Sequence record: NC_002014.1
DNA from: Salmonella phage IKe
Length of the DNA: 6,883 nucleotides
Strand: one strand, 5' to 3'
The position numbers were made by a program, and so were the translations under genes. Numbering within the stretch: position 1 is the first letter of the stretch; every line of letters begins with the position of its first letter. The notes under the pieces were generated by a model that was given only the letters and a program-made list of their open reading frames with translations, searched no databases and was not told where the DNA came from. Positions 1 to 6,883 of this stretch are shown here, piece by piece.

Positions 1-6
1 GAATTC

Positions 7-1272
7 ATGATCGACATGCTGGTGTTAAGGATACCTTTTAAAAGCTCTCTTGTGTCGGAGCGTCTTGATTCTAAGGGAAATTATGTTTCCCATGTGAATC
101 TTGCTGAGGTTGCACGACTCTCCGGTCTGACTCTCGCAGCACATACCGTTGAATATGCCATTGATGGTGATTTAACTGTATCCGGCCTTAAGCATCCTTA
201 CGAATCTCTTCCGTCTCATTATGCGGGTATCGCGCTGAAAATTTTTGAGGGCGGTAAAAACTTCGAGCCTTGTGTAGAGTTGAAAGCATCTCCGGCGAAG
301 TTGTTACAAGGTCACAACGTTTTTGGCCCGACTTCCTTTGAATTGTGTGGATTGGAGTTTTTCGGCGCTTTTGCGGCGGCTATGCCTGAACTGTATGACT
401 TGTGCGATGTAACTAATACTGTAGTTGGTCGTATTGACGTTACATTTAGTGCAAAGGTTGCTAACGATCATATTGCTAATCAGGTCATTTCCTTCCTTCG
501 TAATGTTTCTAATGGTCAGACCAAAAAGACTCGCGCCCTTGATTATGAAACCACTGTTATGTGGAACGAAGGGAGTCGCCATCGTACCCTTGTTGCATAT
601 TTGAAACATCATGAGGTACAGGCTCAGATCAAGAGACTACAAAAAAAGAAAAGCTCTCATCTTACGATCTACGAAAAAAATTGCTTGGAAGTATTAAGCA
701 ATCCTGATTTGCAATTATATGCAGTTGGCCTTGTTAGATTTGAGGCTAGACTTCATACACGTTTTTTTGAAAATTTTGGCTTGCCTAGAAAGTTCTTTGA
801 TATAGTTAAATATCAAGATAATTATGAAAGTGGCTCATTTAATTTAATTTGTGACCTGTGGAAAAAATCGTTTAAAGATCTGTTTGATGCCTTTAAAGGT
901 TCTGATATGAATGTTTATGATGATTCTAAAGTTTATGATGCTTTAATAAATAACTTTTCTTCTGTTACTAAATCAGGCAATATTTCTAATTCCAAAGCTA
1001 ACCGTTTATTTGGTTTTTATCGTCGCTTGGTGAATGAAGGTTATGATAATGTAGCTCAAACGATGGAACGCACTACATTCTGGCGCTCTCTAAAGGAATT
1101 AACTTCTGTAGGTTTGTCAAAGGCTCAATTAATGAACCTTTCGACGGATAATAATGTAGTGCCGTTGGTTCAAATGATTAATGTTGATTTTTCTCAGCAA
1201 TATCCTGAATGGTATGTTGAACCGGTATCTATTTTTAATCGTTCTAATGTAGTCAGCATTAACGCTGCTTAA
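7..1272 (+). CDS. II: Replication initiation endonuclease gpII (rolling-circle nickase/ligase), 421 aa
   Basis: Full ORF from the track. The N-terminus MIDMLVLRIPF and long stretches (TVEYAIDGDLTVSGL, LRNVSNGQTK, RHRTLVAYLKH, GLVRFEAR, FGFYRRLVNEGYD, QLMNLSTDNNVVPLV, INVDFS) match f1/M13 gene II protein as I recall it. It is the first gene after the IG, as in Ff phages. Confidence 0.97.
   Translation: MIDMLVLRIPFKSSLVSERLDSKGNYVSHVNLAEVARLSGLTLAAHTVEYAIDGDLTVSGLKHPYESLPSHYAGIALKIFEGGKNFEPCVELKASPAKLLQGHNVFGPTSFELCGLEFFGAFAAAMPELYDLCDVTNTVVGRIDVTFSAKVANDHIANQVISFLRNVSNGQTKKTRALDYETTVMWNEGSRHRTLVAYLKHHEVQAQIKRLQKKKSSHLTIYEKNCLEVLSNPDLQLYAVGLVRFEARLHTRFFENFGLPRKFFDIVKYQDNYESGSFNLICDLWKKSFKDLFDAFKGSDMNVYDDSKVYDALINNFSSVTKSGNISNSKANRLFGFYRRLVNEGYDNVAQTMERTTFWRSLKELTSVGLSKAQLMNLSTDNNVVPLVQMINVDFSQQYPEWYVEPVSIFNRSNVVSINAA
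907..1272 (+). CDS. X: gpX, in-frame internal restart product of gene II (C-terminal 121 aa)
   Basis: In-frame ATG at 907 (…KGSD-MNVYDDSKVYDAL) aligns with the f1 gene X start (MNIYDDSAVLDAI). AAGG lies 7-8 nt upstream (896-899). Nested gene X is established for Ff phages, but its expression here is inferred by homology only. Confidence 0.7.
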   Translation: MNVYDDSKVYDALINNFSSVTKSGNISNSKANRLFGFYRRLVNEGYDNVAQTMERTTFWRSLKELTSVGLSKAQLMNLSTDNNVVPLVQMINVDFSQQYPEWYVEPVSIFNRSNVVSINAA

Positions 1273-2081: not shown

Positions 2082-3386
2082 GTGAAAAGAAAAATAATAG
2101 CAATTTCTTTATTTTTATACATCCCTTTGTCTAATGCTGATAATTGGGAGTCTATTACTAAAAGCTATTACACTGGCTTTGCCATTTCTAAAACTGTTGA
2201 ATCAAAAGATAAGGATGGTAAACCAGTTCGTAAAGAGGTTATAACTCAGGCTGATTTAACTACCGCCTGTAATGATGCTAAAGCCTCCGCACAAAATGTT
2301 TTTAATCAAATCAAGCTAACATTATCTGGTACATGGCCTAATTCTCAGTTTCGCCTTGTAACTGGTGATACCTGCGTTTATAACGGTTCGCCTGGTGAAA
2401 AAACTGAATCTTGGTCTATTCGCGCTCAGGTTGAGGGTGATATACAACGTTCTGTACCAGATGAAGAACCTTCTGAACAAACGCCAGAAGAAATTTGTGA
2501 AGCCAAACCTCCTATTGATGGCGTTTTTAATAACGTCTTTAAGGGTGACGAAGGAGGCTTTTATATTAATTATAATGGCTGTGAATATGAGGCAACTGGC
2601 GTTACTGTTTGCCAGAATGATGGAACTGTCTGTTCCTCCTCCGCTTGGAAGCCAACAGGTTACGTTCCCGAATCTGGAGAACCTTCCTCCTCTCCTCTGA
2701 AAGACGGTGACACTGGCGGTACTGGTGAAGGTGGTTCTGATACTGGCGGTGATACCGGTGGCGGTGATACTGGTGGTGGTTCTACTGGCGGCGATACTGG
2801 CGGTTCTTCTGGTGGCGGTTCGTCTGGTGGCGGTTCGTCTGGTGGATCAACTGGTAAATCACTGACAAAGGAAGATGTAACCGCAGCAATACATGTTGCT
2901 TCCCCTTCTATTGGTGATGCTGTTAAAGATTCTCTTACAGAAGATAATGACCAGTACGACAATCAGAAGAAAGCAGATGAACAATCAGCTAAAGCCTCTG
3001 CTTCTGTATCTGACGCTATCTCTGATGGTATGCGTGGCGTTGGTAATTTCGTTGACGATTTTGGCGGTGAGTCGTCGCAATACGGTACAGGCAATTCTGA
3101 AATGGATCTTTCCGTTAGCCTGGCTAAAGGGCAACTTGGAATTGATCGTGAGGGTCATGGTTCAGCTTGGGAATCTTTTTTAAATGATGGTGCTTTACGT
3201 CCCTCCATTCCTACTGGTCATGGTTGCACTAATTTTGTCATGTATCAGGGTTCTGTTTATCAGATTGAAATTGGCTGTGACAAATTAAATGATATTAAAT
3301 CAGTATTATCTTGGGTTATGTACTGTTTAACATTCTGGTATGTATTCCAGTCTGTTACTTCATTACTTCGTAAAGGTGAACAATAA
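2082..3386 (+). CDS. III: Adsorption/minor coat protein gpIII, 434 aa, GTG start
   Basis: GTG start with AAGG (2071-2074) 7 nt upstream; f1 gene III also starts with GTG. It has a signal peptide ([19 protein letters not shown]|DNW), Cys-containing N-terminal domains, one Gly/Ser/Thr/Asp-rich linker, and a C-terminal hydrophobic anchor ([27 protein letters not shown]). Confidence 0.95.
2706..2855 (+). repeat. Gly-rich linker-coding tandem repeats inside gene III
   Basis: The region encodes [50 protein letters not shown]. It includes three consecutive 15-nt units GGTTC(T/G)TCTGGTGG(C/A) at 2802-2816, 2817-2831 and 2832-2846, plus GGTGATAC(C/T)GGTGG-type units upstream. Confidence 0.9.
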
Positions 3387-4837: not shown

Positions 4838-6151
4838 ATGAAATTACAGGCTGAAAAGAAATTAATTTTTGGGTATGTTGCTCTCTGTTTCCTTATGACA
4901 TTAGGCATTGCATTTAATGTTCTGGCTGATCCGGTCAATTTAAATAACGCTCCGGTGCGTTCGTTTGTGCAATGGTATTCGCAAAAATCTAATAAAGCTG
5001 TTGTTGTAAATCCTGATGTTAAAGGAAATATTACTGTATTTAATGCAGATGTTAATCAGGCCAATATTGATGATTTCTTTAAGTCTGTTCTTAACGCTAA
5101 TGGCTTTGTTCTTATGGCTGGTGATCCTTCAGGTGTGTCTACTCCGTCAAAGCTGCCTTCTCAACAGACCGATAATGATGATGATTATGAAGATTCCGCG
5201 GATTATGTTCCGGTTGGTGATTCTGTTCCGGTATCTGCCCAACCGCAAAAGCCTTTAGATCTTACCGTTCGCAATTTTAAGTTAACCCGCGTGCGTTCTT
5301 CTGACGTTCTTCCGCTTGCCAAAATCTTTGTCGATTCCAACGGTGGCGGCGATGTTATTGATTACCCAGGCAATAACAGCCTGTTGGTTTCTGGTTCTGC
5401 TGCTATCATGAATGCCCTGGCTGATTTCATTACGTCAATCGACGTTGCCCGTGATCAGGTTCTTATTCAGTCGCTTATGTTTGAAACCAGCTTAGTTAAT
5501 GGCGTGGATCTTTCTTTTGCTGCCGGTTCTGCTTCTGGTGATAAGGTCGCAGGCGGTTTCAATACATCTGCTCTTGGCACTGCACTTTCAACTGCTGGCG
5601 GTTCCTTCGGCATCTTTAACGGTAATGTTTTAGCGTTATCCATTCAGGCGGTAAAAAATGACTCTAATTCAAAAGTTATTTCTACCCCGCGCATCCTGAC
5701 GCAATCAGGTCAGACAGGTTACATCTCTGTAGGTCAAAATGTGCCGTTTGTCACTGGTAAGGTAACGGGTGAGGCTGCAAATGTTAACAACCCTTTCCAG
5801 ACCATTGAGCGCCGCGATGTTGGTGTTTCTCTTAAGGTGACGCCTGTTGTCATGGGTAATGGTCAGCTTGTTCTTACCATTGATACCAAAGCTGACTCCC
5901 TAACCAGTCAAATGACTGCTAGCGACATCATTACTAATCAGCGTCATATGCAAACGACAGTGCAGATAAAAGACGGTCAGACGCTTTTGCTTGGTGGTCT
6001 TATCGATTCCAATACAACTGACGGTAATCGCTCTGTACCTTGGTTTGAAAGCGTACCTGTGATTGGCTGGTTGTTCCGCAGCCATAGTGATTCGCATAAC
6101 GAAAGAACTATGTTTGTTCTCCTTACCGCGCACGTTATTAAGGCGCTTTGA
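4838..6151 (+). CDS. IV: Outer-membrane secretin gpIV, 437 aa
   Basis: ATG at 4838 with GAAGG (4827-4831) 6 nt upstream, 2 nt after the gene I stop. The signal peptide runs up to …NVLA|DPV. The secretin core closely matches f1 pIV (GGSFGIFNG, STPRILT, SVGQNVPF(V/I)TG, ANVNNPFQTIER, DGQTLLLGGL). The TTG at 4832 used by the ORF track is less likely as the start. Confidence 0.95.
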   Translation: MKLQAEKKLIFGYVALCFLMTLGIAFNVLADPVNLNNAPVRSFVQWYSQKSNKAVVVNPDVKGNITVFNADVNQANIDDFFKSVLNANGFVLMAGDPSGVSTPSKLPSQQTDNDDDYEDSADYVPVGDSVPVSAQPQKPLDLTVRNFKLTRVRSSDVLPLAKIFVDSNGGGDVIDYPGNNSLLVSGSAAIMNALADFITSIDVARDQVLIQSLMFETSLVNGVDLSFAAGSASGDKVAGGFNTSALGTALSTAGGSFGIFNGNVLALSIQAVKNDSNSKVISTPRILTQSGQTGYISVGQNVPFVTGKVTGEAANVNNPFQTIERRDVGVSLKVTPVVMGNGQLVLTIDTKADSLTSQMTASDIITNQRHMQTTVQIKDGQTLLLGGLIDSNTTDGNRSVPWFESVPVIGWLFRSHSDSHNERTMFVLLTAHVIKAL

Positions 6152-6197
6152 GGCTGCCGGGTAGGTGCGCTAGCCCTGCCCGTAGACTCTTGCGCCT
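6141..6197 (+). other. Long imperfect GC-rich hairpin across the gene IV stop; candidate packaging (morphogenetic) signal and/or gene IV terminator
   Basis: Hand-folded pairs are 6141-6146/6192-6197 (AGGCGC/GCGCCT), 6150-6152/6187-6189, 6154-6155/6184-6185, and an 8-bp inner stem 6158-6165/6175-6182 (CGGGTAGG/CCTGCCCG, one G.T). In Ff the packaging hairpin is the first IG element after gene IV, so the assignment here is positional only. The true signal may extend further toward about 6275. Confidence 0.35.
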
Positions 6198-6275
6198 CTC
6201 CGTGTGCGCGGCTTCGATACAACGTATGTTCCTCGGTTTTCACATCCATAATGGCTGCGGTGCTAACGGCTAGTT

Positions 6276-6376
6276 AGTACGTGATAATTTTCACGTACTC
6301 CGCCCTTCTCTTTCGGCGTTCTCCGGCGTCGAATCGTCAAACGCTAAATCGTGGGGGCCCCTTTGGGCCGATTTAG
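6276..6376 (+). other. Complementary (-) strand origin region (RNA-polymerase primer hairpins)
   Basis: A perfect 9-bp hairpin AGTACGTGA(6276-6284)/TCACGTACT(6291-6299) is followed by a pyrimidine-rich tract. A second hairpin CTAAATCG(6344-6351)/CGATTTAG(6369-6376) encloses GGGGGCCCCTTTGGGC. The stretch GTCAAACGCTAAATCGTGGGGGCCCCTTTGGGCCGATTTAGTGATTTACGACAC closely parallels f1 GTCAAGCTCTAAATCGGGGGCTCCCTTTAGGGTTCCGATTTAGTGCTTTACGGCAC, which is part of the f1 (-) origin. Confidence 0.65.
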
Positions 6377-6409
6377 TGATTTACGACACTCCATAAATAT
6401 CCTTGTTAT

Positions 6410-6455
6410 GGGTGATGGTTCACGTAGTGGGCCATCGCCTTGTTAGACGTTTTTT
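6410..6455 (+). other. Highly conserved IG block shared with Ff (stem GGTGATGG/CCATCGCC)
   Basis: GGGTGATGGTTCACGTAGTGGGCCATCGCC (6410-6439) is identical over 30 nt to the f1 ori sequence as I recall it. It is followed by TTGTTAGACGTTTTT versus f1 CTGATAGACGGTTTTT. It can form an 8-bp stem 6411-6418/6432-6439 with one G.T pair. Confidence 0.6.
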
Positions 6456-6553
6456 TCTTTTGGTGATCGATAAGCGATTTTGTAGTTTGACGGTCGTAGA
6501 CGAAAGGACGTGGAAGCGGCGATTTTGGATCTGGCAGTCGGCTCGGTCGTGGT

Positions 6554-6597
6554 GAGTCCACTATGTTTAATAGTGGACTCTTGTTGCATTTTGCAAC
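6554..6597 (+). other. Viral (+) strand origin core: gpII nick-site hairpin plus adjacent hairpin
   Basis: GAGTCCACTAT(6554-6564)-gttta-ATAGTGGACTC(6570-6580) is followed by GTTGCA(6583-6588)-ttt-TGCAAC(6592-6597). f1 has GAGTCCACGTTCTTT^AATAGTGGACTCTTGTTCCAAACTGGAAC. By homology the nick is predicted between T6568 and A6569. Confidence 0.85.
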
Positions 6598-6600
6598 GTG

Positions 6601-6798
6601 CTACAGCCCTCTCTCCTTCAAAACTCCTTCGATTGCTTCTTCAAGTTTATGTTTTATAAGATAATTTATCAGTTCTGATTTTTTTATAGGCAAACCAGCT
6701 CTTTTTGTTGCTTCGACAGTTGCCGTTACCAGTAAATTTTGCATGTGCCTATTGATAGTTACTGTAGTTCTACTGCCTCTTTTACCTAGTGTATTCAT
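6601..6798 (-). CDS. Hypothetical 65-aa protein, possible ribbon-helix-helix (CopG/Arc/MetJ-like) DNA-binding regulator, divergent from gene II
   Basis: This is the only ORF of 65 aa or more that does not overlap a canonical gene. On the minus strand, ATG (6798-6796) is preceded by AGGA (6810-6807) with an 8-nt spacer. The sequence fits strand-helix-turn-helix: SRTTVTINRH (alternating beta pattern), MQNLLVTATVEATKRAG, then LPIKKSELINYLIKHKLEEAI, where the SELI-type helix start is typical of RHH helix B. Against a real gene: it is short, rich in rare codons (AGA x4, AGG, ATA x3, CTA), and has no convincing sigma70 promoter by eye. No search was possible. Confidence 0.4.
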   Translation of the reverse strand: MNTLGKRGSRTTVTINRHMQNLLVTATVEATKRAGLPIKKSELINYLIKHKLEEAIEGVLKERGL

Positions 6799-6828
6799 AA
6801 AATAAATCCTAAAGATCTTTACAAATAG

Positions 6829-6856
6829 TTGCGTTTAAATTTACATGTGTTAAATT
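6829..6856 (+). promoter_or_regulatory. Candidate gene II promoter (-35 TTGCGT, 16-nt spacer, extended -10 TGtTAAATT)
   Basis: TTGCGT lies at 6829-6834, TG at 6848-6849 and TAAATT at 6851-6856. This predicts a start near 6863 and a leader of roughly 27 nt that wraps to the gene II ATG at 7. The motif match is by eye only. Ff phages have a strong promoter directly upstream of gene II. Confidence 0.3.
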
Positions 6857-6883
6857 ACGCACATGGTGAGTGTTTGAGTGCTT

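What the first reader, a model, noticed from the sequence alone, without database searches (positions are those of the whole stretch)
6799..6883. Repeat- and palindrome-rich 91-nt divergent region between the antisense ORF and gene II (wraps to 1-6): candidate operator
Several symmetric elements lie between the two divergent start codons. A perfect 10-bp palindrome AAAGATCTTT (6811-6820) abuts the ORF SD. Two direct repeats, GTTTAAATTTACATG (6833-6847) and GTTAAATTAC-gc-ACATG (6849-6864), are spaced about 16 nt apart. An inverted repeat CATGTG (6844-6849) / CACATG (6860-6865) is also present. The repeats overlap the spacer and -10 of the candidate gene II promoter. Tandem or inverted short repeats overlapping a promoter are the usual binding architecture for RHH dimers of dimers. 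This layout is what autoregulation plus gene II repression by the adjacent ORF product would require.
Basis: seen in the sequence. Interest (0 to 1): 0.5.

Follow-up and report, generated by a model that had tools for sequence, protein, structure and literature searches.

The report
Control region between hidden repressor and gene II

Summary
The window is a complete 6883-nt IKe-type filamentous phage genome. All the listed elements exist: the palindrome is really 12 bp (6810-6821) and DR2 ends at 6865. None is rare by chance (p = 0.046, 0.11 and 0.46). The palindrome is found in IKe only (1 of 15 related control regions), and DR1 lies in the variable promoter spacer.

What is conserved in 15 distinct relatives:
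- the ribosome-binding site of the antisense ORF;
- a sigma-70 extended -10 promoter for gene II (TTG, 16 nt, TRTGnTAnnnT; IKe 6829-6856);
- a tandem 8-bp array, TGAGTGTT|TGAGTGCT|TGAATTCA, running into the gene II ATG (6867-8; p = 0.001).

The 65-aa antisense ORF is a real gene (dN/dS 0.1-0.3) with a predicted ribbon-helix-helix fold. It always lies divergent from gene II. Relatives only 33-46% identical keep an 8-bp array at the same place but with a different unit (TTATTCAY, 2-5 copies). The unit follows the RHH beta-strand, not pV or pII.

Best reading: the RHH protein represses gene II through this region, most likely at the 8-bp array. Binding has not been tested. The module is a known kind in filamentous phages, but I found no description of it for IKe.

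The parts
6601..6798 (-). ORF65, a 65-aa predicted ribbon-helix-helix protein. It is not annotated in the related public records I could check.
6807..6811 (-). Shine-Dalgarno sequence of ORF65 (TAGGA on the minus strand), 8 nt before its ATG.
   Evidence: TCCTA is invariant in the 10-sequence alignment and changed only in L029 among the 15.
6810..6821 (.). 12-bp perfect palindrome TAAAGATCTTTA (contains a BglII site). It is specific to IKe.
   Evidence: Chance p = 0.046. It is absent at this position from the 14 other control regions, which read TATAATATCTTTA or something else.
6829..6834 (+). Predicted gene II promoter -35 element, TTGCGT (TTG is conserved).
   Evidence: TTG is invariant in the 10-sequence alignment, with a fixed 16-nt spacer. 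It is the best plus-strand promoter candidate in IKe and among the top plus-strand candidates in all 11 phages scanned.
6833..6847 (+). It lies in the variable promoter spacer.
   Evidence: Positions 6835-6843 are the most variable of the conserved block. The DR1/DR2 gapped alignment has p = 0.11.
6845..6856 (+). Extended -10 element, ATGTGT TAAATT (TRTGn followed by TAnnnT).
   Evidence: The invariant columns T63, T65, G66, T68, A69 and T73 fall on the positions expected for -17, -15, -14, -12, -11 and -7.
6844..6865 (.). It is a secondary operator candidate.
   Evidence: 8 of 11 positions pair (read). The exact arms occur in 7 of 15 relatives and a partial ATGT...ACAT in most others. An ACATGT core recurs near gene II in other RHH-type inoviruses.
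6861..6864 (+). Predicted gene II transcription start, within the conserved CACATGG.
   Evidence: Inferred from the distance to the -10. ACATG is invariant in the 10-sequence alignment. It has not been mapped experimentally.
6867..6883 (+). Tandem 8-bp array, units 1 and 2 plus the first base of unit 3: TGAGTGTT|TGAGTGCT|T. This is the main operator candidate.
   Evidence: These are the only two TGAGTG in the genome on either strand. The double unit is expected 0.01 times per genome. Offset-8 periodicity has p = 0.001. The array is present in 15 of 15 control regions. Distant homologues have TTATTCAY in 2-5 copies at the same place.
1..9 (+). The rest of unit 3 (GAATTCA), followed by the gene II start codon ATG at 7-9.
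   Evidence: The array keeps the same register up to the ATG in the IKe-like clade.

Best explanation
Positions 6799-6883 (continuing to 1-6) form the bidirectional control region between gene II (the replication initiator) and a divergently transcribed, unannotated 65-aa ribbon-helix-helix gene.

The region holds three things: the RHH gene's ribosome-binding site; a sigma-70 extended -10 promoter for gene II (-35 TTGCGT at 6829-6834, TGTGT-TAAATT at 6846-6856, start near 6863); and a roughly 27-nt leader made of three tandem 8-bp units that run into the gene II ATG.

Proposed mechanism: dimers of the RHH protein bind side by side on the 8-bp array, just downstream of the start site. They may also bind the ACATGT-type dyad next to the -10. 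This holds down gene II transcription and so sets replicative-form copy number and phage output.

Shown here: the gene is real, its fold is RHH-like by prediction, the promoter footprint is conserved, and the array is conserved and follows the RHH protein. Inferred only: that the protein binds here, the position of the start site, and the direction of regulation.
For: - ORF65 is under purifying selection: dN/dS 0.09-0.30 with synonymous sites near saturation.
- Synteny is constant. The ORF sits between gene IV and a divergent gene II in every contig recovered, including homologues only 33-46% identical.
- In the 10-sequence alignment the invariant promoter-region columns are the -35 TTG and the T.TG.TA...T of an extended -10, with a fixed 16-nt spacer. 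They stay nearly invariant in the 15-sequence set. This is also a top-ranked plus-strand promoter candidate in all 11 phages scanned.
- The tandem 8-bp array is present in 15 of 15 control regions. It is expected 0.01 times per genome by chance, and its periodicity has p = 0.001.
- Distant homologues keep the 8-bp period and the position but use a different unit, TTATTCAY in 2-5 copies. TRF gives period 8, 4.4 copies, 96% matches.
- The unit follows the RHH beta-strand. RTTVTINRH goes with TGAGTG, RTNVTLSEE with T(C/A/T)GTGYTT, RSSVTINKS with TGAATGTT, and RTTISINE with TTATTCA.
- It does not follow pV: pV is 37-49% identical in L009, L010, L015, L040 and L041, yet the array is unchanged. It does not follow pII: L039 has pII at 80% identity, yet its array is changed.
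- Other inoviruses with small divergent RHH-like genes carry their own short repeats near gene II. In L092 the copies are in both orientations, which requires a DNA-level reading.
- Ff has neither the ORF nor any such array.
Against: - There are no binding, footprint or transcript data. The transcription start is predicted only.
- The -35 matches the consensus at 3 of 6 positions, and the tool's own promoter scan reported no site in 6100-6883.
- All array units have the same orientation and lie in the transcribed leader, so an RNA-level role is equally compatible with position.
- The unit is not palindromic, unlike MetJ boxes.
- The RHH residues predicted to face DNA (R10, T12, T14, N16) are almost the same in the TGAGTG and TTATTCA groups, so the specificity change is not obviously explained.
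- The divergence hot-spot (6700-6815) covers the N-terminal half of the protein but not the array, so there is no co-variation within the IKe-like clade.
- No convincing minus-strand promoter for ORF65 was found in IKe itself.
- The link between a changed RHH beta-strand and a changed array, independent of pII, rests on only one or two lineages (L039, L042).
Confidence: 0.5

Rival explanations
1. The conserved tandem 8-nt units act in the gene II mRNA leader, not on DNA. They could be the target of the single-strand-binding protein pV for translational repression of gene II, as in Ff. They could also be repeated weak Shine-Dalgarno-like (GAGUG) ribosome-loading sites. Under this reading the RHH protein, if it regulates anything here, binds elsewhere.
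For: - The array lies wholly between the predicted start site and the ATG, all units have one orientation, and the third unit overlaps the start codon.
- The leader is about 72% G+U (counted) and unstructured, with a fold z-score of -0.3. From memory, the Ff pV target GUUUUUGGGGCUUUUC (Michel and Zinder 1989) is similar in these respects; the f1 sequence is.
- No clear canonical Shine-Dalgarno sequence precedes gene II, so GAGUG may serve that role.
Against: - L033 carries an Ff-like TTTTTTGGGGTTTCC stretch downstream of, and separate from, its 8-nt array.
- The array is identical in phages whose pV is only 37-49% identical to IKe's. It changes in L039, where the RHH beta-strand changes.
- The TTATTCAY unit of distant relatives is not Shine-Dalgarno-like.
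- Ff, where pV control is established, has no repeat.
- Comparable repeats in L092 occur in inverted copies upstream as well.
Confidence: 0.25
2. The RHH operator is the inverted repeat CATGTG-N10-CACATG flanking the -10. A dimer of dimers would occlude RNA polymerase, and the 8-bp array would have another role.
For: - The arms are invariant in the seven IKe-like control regions.
- An ACATGT-centred palindrome recurs at or near the gene II promoter in other family members. L029 has ATAACATGTTAT, L079 has TTACATGTAA twice, and L091 and L094 have TGTATACATGT twice.
- The position over the -10 is a classic repressor site.
Against: - A 6-bp inverted repeat arises by chance with p = 0.46.
- The left arm coincides with the TRTGn extended -10 motif and the right arm with the start-site region, so each is explained without an operator.
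- The pair is degraded or absent in L009, L015, L019, L040, L029 and L030-L036, which all keep the RHH gene.
- The arm centres are 16 bp apart, which puts them on opposite faces of the helix. That is unfavourable for cooperating RHH dimers (inference).
- CATG is also frequent in HTH-type loci, as in TTGACATG.
Confidence: 0.15
3. The palindrome and repeats listed by the reader are chance features of an AT-rich promoter region. Beyond ordinary promoter and translation signals, nothing in the region is an operator.
For: Chance probabilities are 0.046 for the palindrome, 0.11 for the direct repeats and 0.46 for the inverted repeat. The palindrome is present in 1 of 15 relatives. No Rfam family matches.
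Against: The 8-bp array is far from chance and is conserved in architecture across 33-97% protein identity. Positions 6841-6883 are almost invariant while the adjacent coding DNA has dS up to about 2.
Confidence: 0.07
4. The gene II promoter is an origin-derived pII-binding site, so pII represses its own transcription.
For: The L009 promoter is almost a copy of its own origin repeats (Smith-Waterman score 38, against 15.4 +/- 2.7 in shuffles). L019 is marginal, p = 0.057.
Against: In IKe and its close relatives the similarity is at chance level, p = 0.64-0.97.
Confidence: 0.03

Closest known systems
Divergent repressor / replication-gene control modules of other filamentous phages (CTXphi rstR-ig2-rstA, Pf4 pf4r, SW1 fpsR; recalled from memory and from titles listed)
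   Same: A small regulator gene is transcribed divergently from the rolling-circle initiator gene, with a short intergenic region that holds the initiator's promoter. The regulator gene is allelically variable: here the divergence hot-spot at 6700-6815. The same slot holds HTH-type repressors in other inoviruses.
   Different: The regulator here has a predicted ribbon-helix-helix fold, not helix-turn-helix. No integrase, dif site or lysogeny module was seen in the genome. The host phage IKe is described as non-integrating, and this stretch is described as intergenic (PMC7307601). Repressor function has not been tested.
RHH repressors that bind arrays of short tandem repeats: MetJ (8-bp met boxes), ParG of TP228 (ACTC boxes at 8-bp spacing), Omega of pSM19035 (7-bp heptads). 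Box sequences and spacings are recalled from memory.
   Different: There is no sequence-level family membership: Pfam and NCBIfam hits are below threshold. The unit is not palindromic, unlike a met box. The array lies downstream of the predicted start site rather than over the -35 or -10. Binding has not been shown.
Ff (f1/M13) gene II leader and pV translational operator
   Same: The position is the same, between the gene II promoter and the ATG. Both are G/U-rich and unstructured.
   Different: The Ff leader has no repeat and no sequence similarity to the IKe leader. Ff has no antisense ORF, and an AT-rich replication enhancer fills the equivalent 200 nt.
P22 Arc/Mnt immI region
   Different: The palindromic candidates here are either not conserved (the 12-bp palindrome) or explained by promoter motifs (the inverted repeat).

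Membership tests
Ribbon-helix-helix (MetJ/Arc/CopG) DNA-binding proteins (for ORF65) | An N-terminal beta-strand followed by two helices, forming an intertwined dimer. | tested here: met
Ribbon-helix-helix (MetJ/Arc/CopG) DNA-binding proteins (for ORF65) | A significant match to a curated RHH sequence family. | tested here: not met
   IKe ORF65 has no Pfam hit. Homologues hit RHH_3 at E 0.013-0.12, below the gathering score. NCBIfam gave nothing. A profile search of PDB sequences gave nothing relevant. PHROG_2503 matched, but its function is unknown.
RHH repressor-operator module | An operator made of two or more short direct or inverted repeats next to the regulated promoter. | tested here: inconclusive
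   A tandem 8-bp array (2-3 units, up to 5 in relatives) and an imperfect dyad over the -10 are both present. Which of them, if either, is bound is unknown.
RHH repressor-operator module | Sequence-specific binding of the protein to the repeats, and repression of the promoter. | not testable with these tools
   This needs EMSA or footprinting and reporter assays.
Sigma-70 extended -10 promoter (for gene II) | TG at -15/-14, a -10 hexamer with A at -11 and T at -7, and a -35 element at 16-18 nt. | tested here: met
   IKe has TTGCGT, 16 nt, then TGT-TAAATT. The matching columns are invariant in the 10-sequence alignment and nearly so in the 15-sequence set. It is a top-ranked candidate in all 11 phages scanned. 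The -35 matches only 3 of 6 positions, so the tool's stricter scan did not list it.
Sigma-70 extended -10 promoter (for gene II) | A mapped transcription start 6-8 nt downstream of the -10. | not testable with these tools
   I found no transcript data. The published mapping of IKe mRNAs that I recall (Stump et al. 1997) is not in the searchable library.
Filamentous-phage divergent repressor / initiator module (CTXphi RstR type) | A regulator gene adjacent to, and divergent from, the rolling-circle initiator gene. | tested here: met
   This holds in every contig carrying an ORF65 homologue. An HMM detects the family upstream of gene II in about 35 of 74 loci.
Filamentous-phage divergent repressor / initiator module (CTXphi RstR type) | The module confers immunity or maintains lysogeny. 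| not tested
   No integrase or dif site was looked for systematically. IKe is described as non-integrating (PMC7307601).
pV translational operator of gene II mRNA (Ff type) | An unstructured G/U-rich segment in the gene II 5' leader. | tested here: met
   The leader is about 72% G+U (counted), and its fold z-score is -0.3.
pV translational operator of gene II mRNA (Ff type) | Sequence related to the Ff operator, or co-variation with pV. | tested here: not met
   There is no similarity to the f1 leader. The array is unchanged across pV proteins of 37-94% identity. L033 has a separate Ff-like U6G4 element.

The most novel reading that the evidence does not exclude
IKe is a textbook ten-gene, non-temperate relative of M13. 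Under this reading it has an eleventh gene inside its 'intergenic region': an RHH repressor that sits on a tandem 8-bp operator in the gene II leader and throttles the replication initiator. The same protein-plus-array module, with co-evolving unit sequences and a hypervariable N-terminal half, would define immunity-like types across a large group of inoviruses.
Probability: 0.35. Interest if true: 0.6.

Novelty: new member of a known kind. Interest (0 to 1): 0.45.

Why it matters
IKe is one of the reference filamentous phages, and the stretch between its origin and gene II has been treated as non-coding. If a repressor gene and its operator lie there, models of how Ff-like phages set replicative-form copy number need a transcriptional layer, at least for the IKe lineage. 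At present those models rest on pII, pX and pV only.

The module also gives a compact, portable repressor/operator pair with natural specificity variants (TGAGTGYT, TGAATGTT, TTATTCAY). It would explain why this segment is the most variable part of otherwise 90-100% identical genomes.

For the scan itself, the result shows that the repeats a reader notices by eye in AT-rich DNA were not the functional ones. Comparative data pointed to a different repeat a few bases away.

Tried and rejected
- **Origin mimicry.** I asked whether the gene II promoter copies the origin's pII-binding repeats. This is significant only in L009, marginal in L019 and at chance in IKe, so I rejected it for this window.
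- **Structured RNA in the leader.** There is no significant fold (z = -0.3) and no Rfam family anywhere in the genome.
- **Minus-strand promoter for ORF65.** Relatives have TTTAAC-17-TATTAT abutting the Shine-Dalgarno sequence, which would give a nearly leaderless mRNA. IKe has lost that -10 and offers only a weak TGT-AAAGAT. This is unresolved.
- **Co-variation between the variable N-terminal half of the RHH and bases in 6816-6883 within the IKe-like clade.** I found none.
- **Co-occurrence of tandem repeats with RHH-type versus HTH-type regulators across 74 loci.** RHH-type loci tend to score higher, but the score is noisy and many small regulators escape the HMM. I did not use this as evidence.
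- **Literature.** I found no description of the ORF or of an operator in IKe. The primary IKe papers (Peeters 1985, Stump 1997) are not in the library.
- **Distant homologues in the viral contig collection.** Single-sequence queries found nothing. They were reached through the protein database instead.

Full report
**Identity of the window.** The 6883-nt sequence starts at an EcoRI site, and gene II begins at base 7. It has the gene order of an Ff-like filamentous phage. Length, numbering and content fit phage IKe (from memory of the IKe genome). The closest annotated records are the Erwinia phages PEar1, 2, 4 and 6, which their authors describe as IKe-like (PMC7697814). The pII nick hairpin GAGTCCACTAT/ATAGTGGACTC lies at 6554-6580. 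The finding therefore concerns the DNA between the plus-strand origin and gene II.

**Checking the observation.** The palindrome is really 12 bp (TAAAGATCTTTA, 6810-6821), and DR2 ends at 6865, not 6864. The stretch is 30% G+C, so I tested each element against dinucleotide-preserving shuffles:
- A palindrome of at least 12 bp arises in 4.6% of shuffles, and one of at least 10 bp in 14%.
- A 6-bp inverted repeat with a 3-20 nt loop arises in 46%.
- The gapped DR1/DR2 alignment is matched in 11%.

No single element is statistically remarkable, so conservation has to decide.

**The antisense ORF is a real gene with a predicted ribbon-helix-helix fold.**
- ORF65 (6601-6798, minus strand) has 14 homologue clusters at 68-97% identity, almost all on 6.4-7.5 kb inovirus contigs. 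More distant relatives at 33-46% identity were found with a profile.
- Pairwise dN/dS is 0.09-0.30 while synonymous sites approach saturation, with dS of 0.3-2.
- AlphaFold2 on the family alignment gives pLDDT 85, with an extended N-terminus and helices at 17-34 and 40-62.
- Sequence-family searches stay below threshold. Pfam RHH_3 scores E 0.013-0.12 in four of six homologues, and IKe ORF65 itself has no hit.
- The gene is not annotated in PEar4, the only record among 50,697 annotated phage genomes that contains it.
- The accessible literature calls this stretch intergenic in IKe, I2-2 and M13 (PMC7307601).

**Synteny.** In every contig recovered, the homologue lies between gene IV (the secretin) and a divergently oriented gene II. 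I scanned 74 further gene II loci from IMG/VR, with pII 36-97% identical to IKe's. An HMM of the family detects a homologue upstream on the opposite strand in about 35 of them. Most of the rest have either another small RHH-like ORF or a 110-150-aa HTH-type repressor in the same slot. A small divergent regulator beside gene II is therefore normal for this group of inoviruses. Ff is the exception: it has an AT-rich enhancer and no ORF there.

**What is conserved in the 91-nt region.** I aligned 15 distinct control regions from phages whose ORF65 homologue is 50-97% identical. The conserved columns fall into four groups:
1. TCCTA (6807-6811), the complement of the ORF's Shine-Dalgarno sequence.
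2. TTG of a -35 element (6829-6831).
3. After a fixed 16-nt spacer, T.TG.TA...T. These are the -17, -15, -14, -12, -11 and -7 positions of an extended -10 promoter of the TRTGn type. The IKe sequence is ATGTGT-TAAATT (6845-6856).
4. ACATG at the predicted start site, followed by the block GTGAGTGYTTGAGTGYTTGA running to the gene II ATG.

A simple position-weight scan ranks this promoter first on the plus strand in IKe and among the top plus-strand candidates in all 11 phages scanned. The tool's stricter consensus scan lists nothing, because the -35 matches only 3 of 6 positions.

- The palindrome is unique to IKe. All close relatives read TATAATATCTTTA or TATAAAATCTTTA, and distant ones differ entirely.
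- DR1 occupies the most variable part of the spacer.
- The exact CATGTG/CACATG pair is confined to the seven IKe-like sequences. Its left arm is the TRTGn motif and its right arm is the start-site block. Relatives such as L040, L029 and L030-L036 lack the right arm yet keep the RHH gene.
- The pair remains a possible secondary operator, because ACATGT-centred palindromes recur near gene II in several family members. The evidence for it is weak.

**The repeat that was missed.** The leader reads TGAGTGTT|TGAGTGCT|TGAATTCA|TG, three head-to-tail 8-bp units ending in the start codon.
- TGAGTG occurs only twice in the whole genome on either strand, and both copies are here.
- The double unit is expected 0.01 times per genome.
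- The offset-8 periodicity of the last 34 nt has p = 0.001.
- The array is present in all 15 control regions. L015 and L029 have three full units, and L028 has four degenerate ones.
- Phages whose RHH protein is only 33-46% identical (L030-L036) also have an array with an 8-bp period at the same position, but built from a different unit, TTATTCAY, in 2-5 copies. TRF confirms period 8, 4.4 copies and 96% matches.

The period and position are conserved while the sequence has changed. That is what one expects from a protein and its recognition site evolving together.

**Which protein?** I compared the divergence of pII, pV and the RHH protein with the array.
- *Not pV.* Phages L009, L010, L015, L040 and L041 have pV proteins only 37-49% identical to IKe's. 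That is as diverged as those of the TTATTCAY group, yet they keep the TGAGTGYT array.
- *Not pII.* L039 has a pII as close to IKe's (80%) as L009 and L010 have. Its RHH beta-strand is altered (RTNVTLSEE instead of RTTVTINRH), and its array is altered too, to T(C/A/T)GTGYTT.
- *Further support.* L042 (RSSVTINKS) has TGAATGTT units. L033 carries an Ff-like TTTTTTGGGGTTTCC stretch separate from its array, so a pV-type target and the array can coexist. In L092, a related inovirus with a small RHH-like regulator, the phage-specific motif ATTTGTGAT occurs in direct copies next to gene II and in inverted copies next to the regulator gene. That only makes sense at the DNA level.

These points favour the RHH protein as the partner of the array. 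They rest on few independent lineages and on no experiment.

**Local pattern of divergence.** Between IKe and its close relatives, identity is 90-100% in gene II and the origin. It falls to 47-53% (IKe against L005) over 6721-6810, which is the N-terminal half of ORF65 and its translation-initiation region. It returns to 87-100% from about 6816 onward. The promoter and array are therefore held constant while the regulator's head varies. There is no co-variation within the clade, which is a point against a simple immunity-type model.

**Unresolved points.**
- I could not identify a convincing leftward promoter for ORF65 in IKe. Relatives have TTTAAC-17-TATTAT abutting the Shine-Dalgarno sequence, and IKe has lost that -10.
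- The start site of gene II is inferred, not mapped.
- The RNA-level alternative, with pV or ribosomes acting on the leader, cannot be excluded. All units are co-oriented and transcribed, and the leader is G/U-rich and unstructured.

**Verdict.** The region is very probably the control region of gene II, with an RHH regulator next door, but the conserved repeat is the 8-bp array and not the palindrome or the direct repeats. This is a new member of a known kind of module, sitting unannotated in a classic phage. Interest is moderate.

Noticed in passing
L002-L004 (PEar6/2/1), aligned to window 6493-6750; L001 (PEar4) around its origin: The PEar1, 2 and 6 records lack about 265 nt, including the pII nick hairpin and the 3' half of ORF65. 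In PEar4 the two halves of the origin are permuted around the nick site, which turns ORF65 into a 90-aa read-through ORF. These are either assembly artefacts at the nick site or defective genomes.
   Followed up: partly
window 6596-6606: The ORF65 stop codon (CTA on the plus strand, 6601-6603) lies inside the third origin repeat, TGCTACAG. The C-terminal Gly-Leu-stop is invariant in the family, which suggests a double constraint from protein and origin.
   Followed up: no
L009 gene II promoter versus the L009 origin: The L009 gene II promoter (GTTGCATATTTGCTAACGTGTGCTACA) is a near copy of its own origin repeats (GTTGCATTTTGCAACGTGGCTACA), with four inserted bases that create a 16-nt promoter spacer. 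The Smith-Waterman score is 38 against 15.4 +/- 2.7 in shuffles. This hints that the promoter arose by duplication of the origin.
   Followed up: partly
L043-L046, L056, L059, L069, L087, L101, L107 (upstream of gene II): In other inoviruses with a related pII, the slot that ORF65 occupies holds a 110-150-aa HTH (XRE-like) repressor. So two unrelated regulator types alternate at one genomic position.
   Followed up: partly
L033 leader, just upstream of the gene II ATG: A TTTTTTGGGGTTTCC stretch closely resembles the Ff gene II leader segment GTTTTTGGGGCTTTTC, which is known as the pV target. It sits next to the 8-bp array.
   Followed up: no
L117 (f1) 330-340 versus window 6866-6875: The f1 origin sequence AACACTCAAC is the reverse complement of the IKe leader unit TTGAGTGTT. 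An 8-9-mer match in a 6.4-kb genome is probably chance.
   Followed up: no
L015 (contig of 12,758 nt): The contig carries two copies of the whole phage gene set, so it looks like a head-to-tail dimer of a roughly 6.4-kb genome. It could be a tandem prophage, a replication intermediate or an assembly effect.
   Followed up: no
window 2738-2845: TRF reports nested 12-, 15- and 27-nt tandem repeats (TGGCGG-rich) inside gene III. This is presumably the glycine-rich linker region.
   Followed up: no
window 6718-6751 versus 6827-6860: A stretch inside ORF65 (AGTTGCCGTTA...AATTTTGCATGTGCCTA) resembles the promoter region (AGTTGCGTTTA AATTTACATGTG). ATTTTGCA also occurs in the origin at 6588-6595. These are short matches, partly dictated by the codons for Ala-Thr, and are probably chance.
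   Followed up: no
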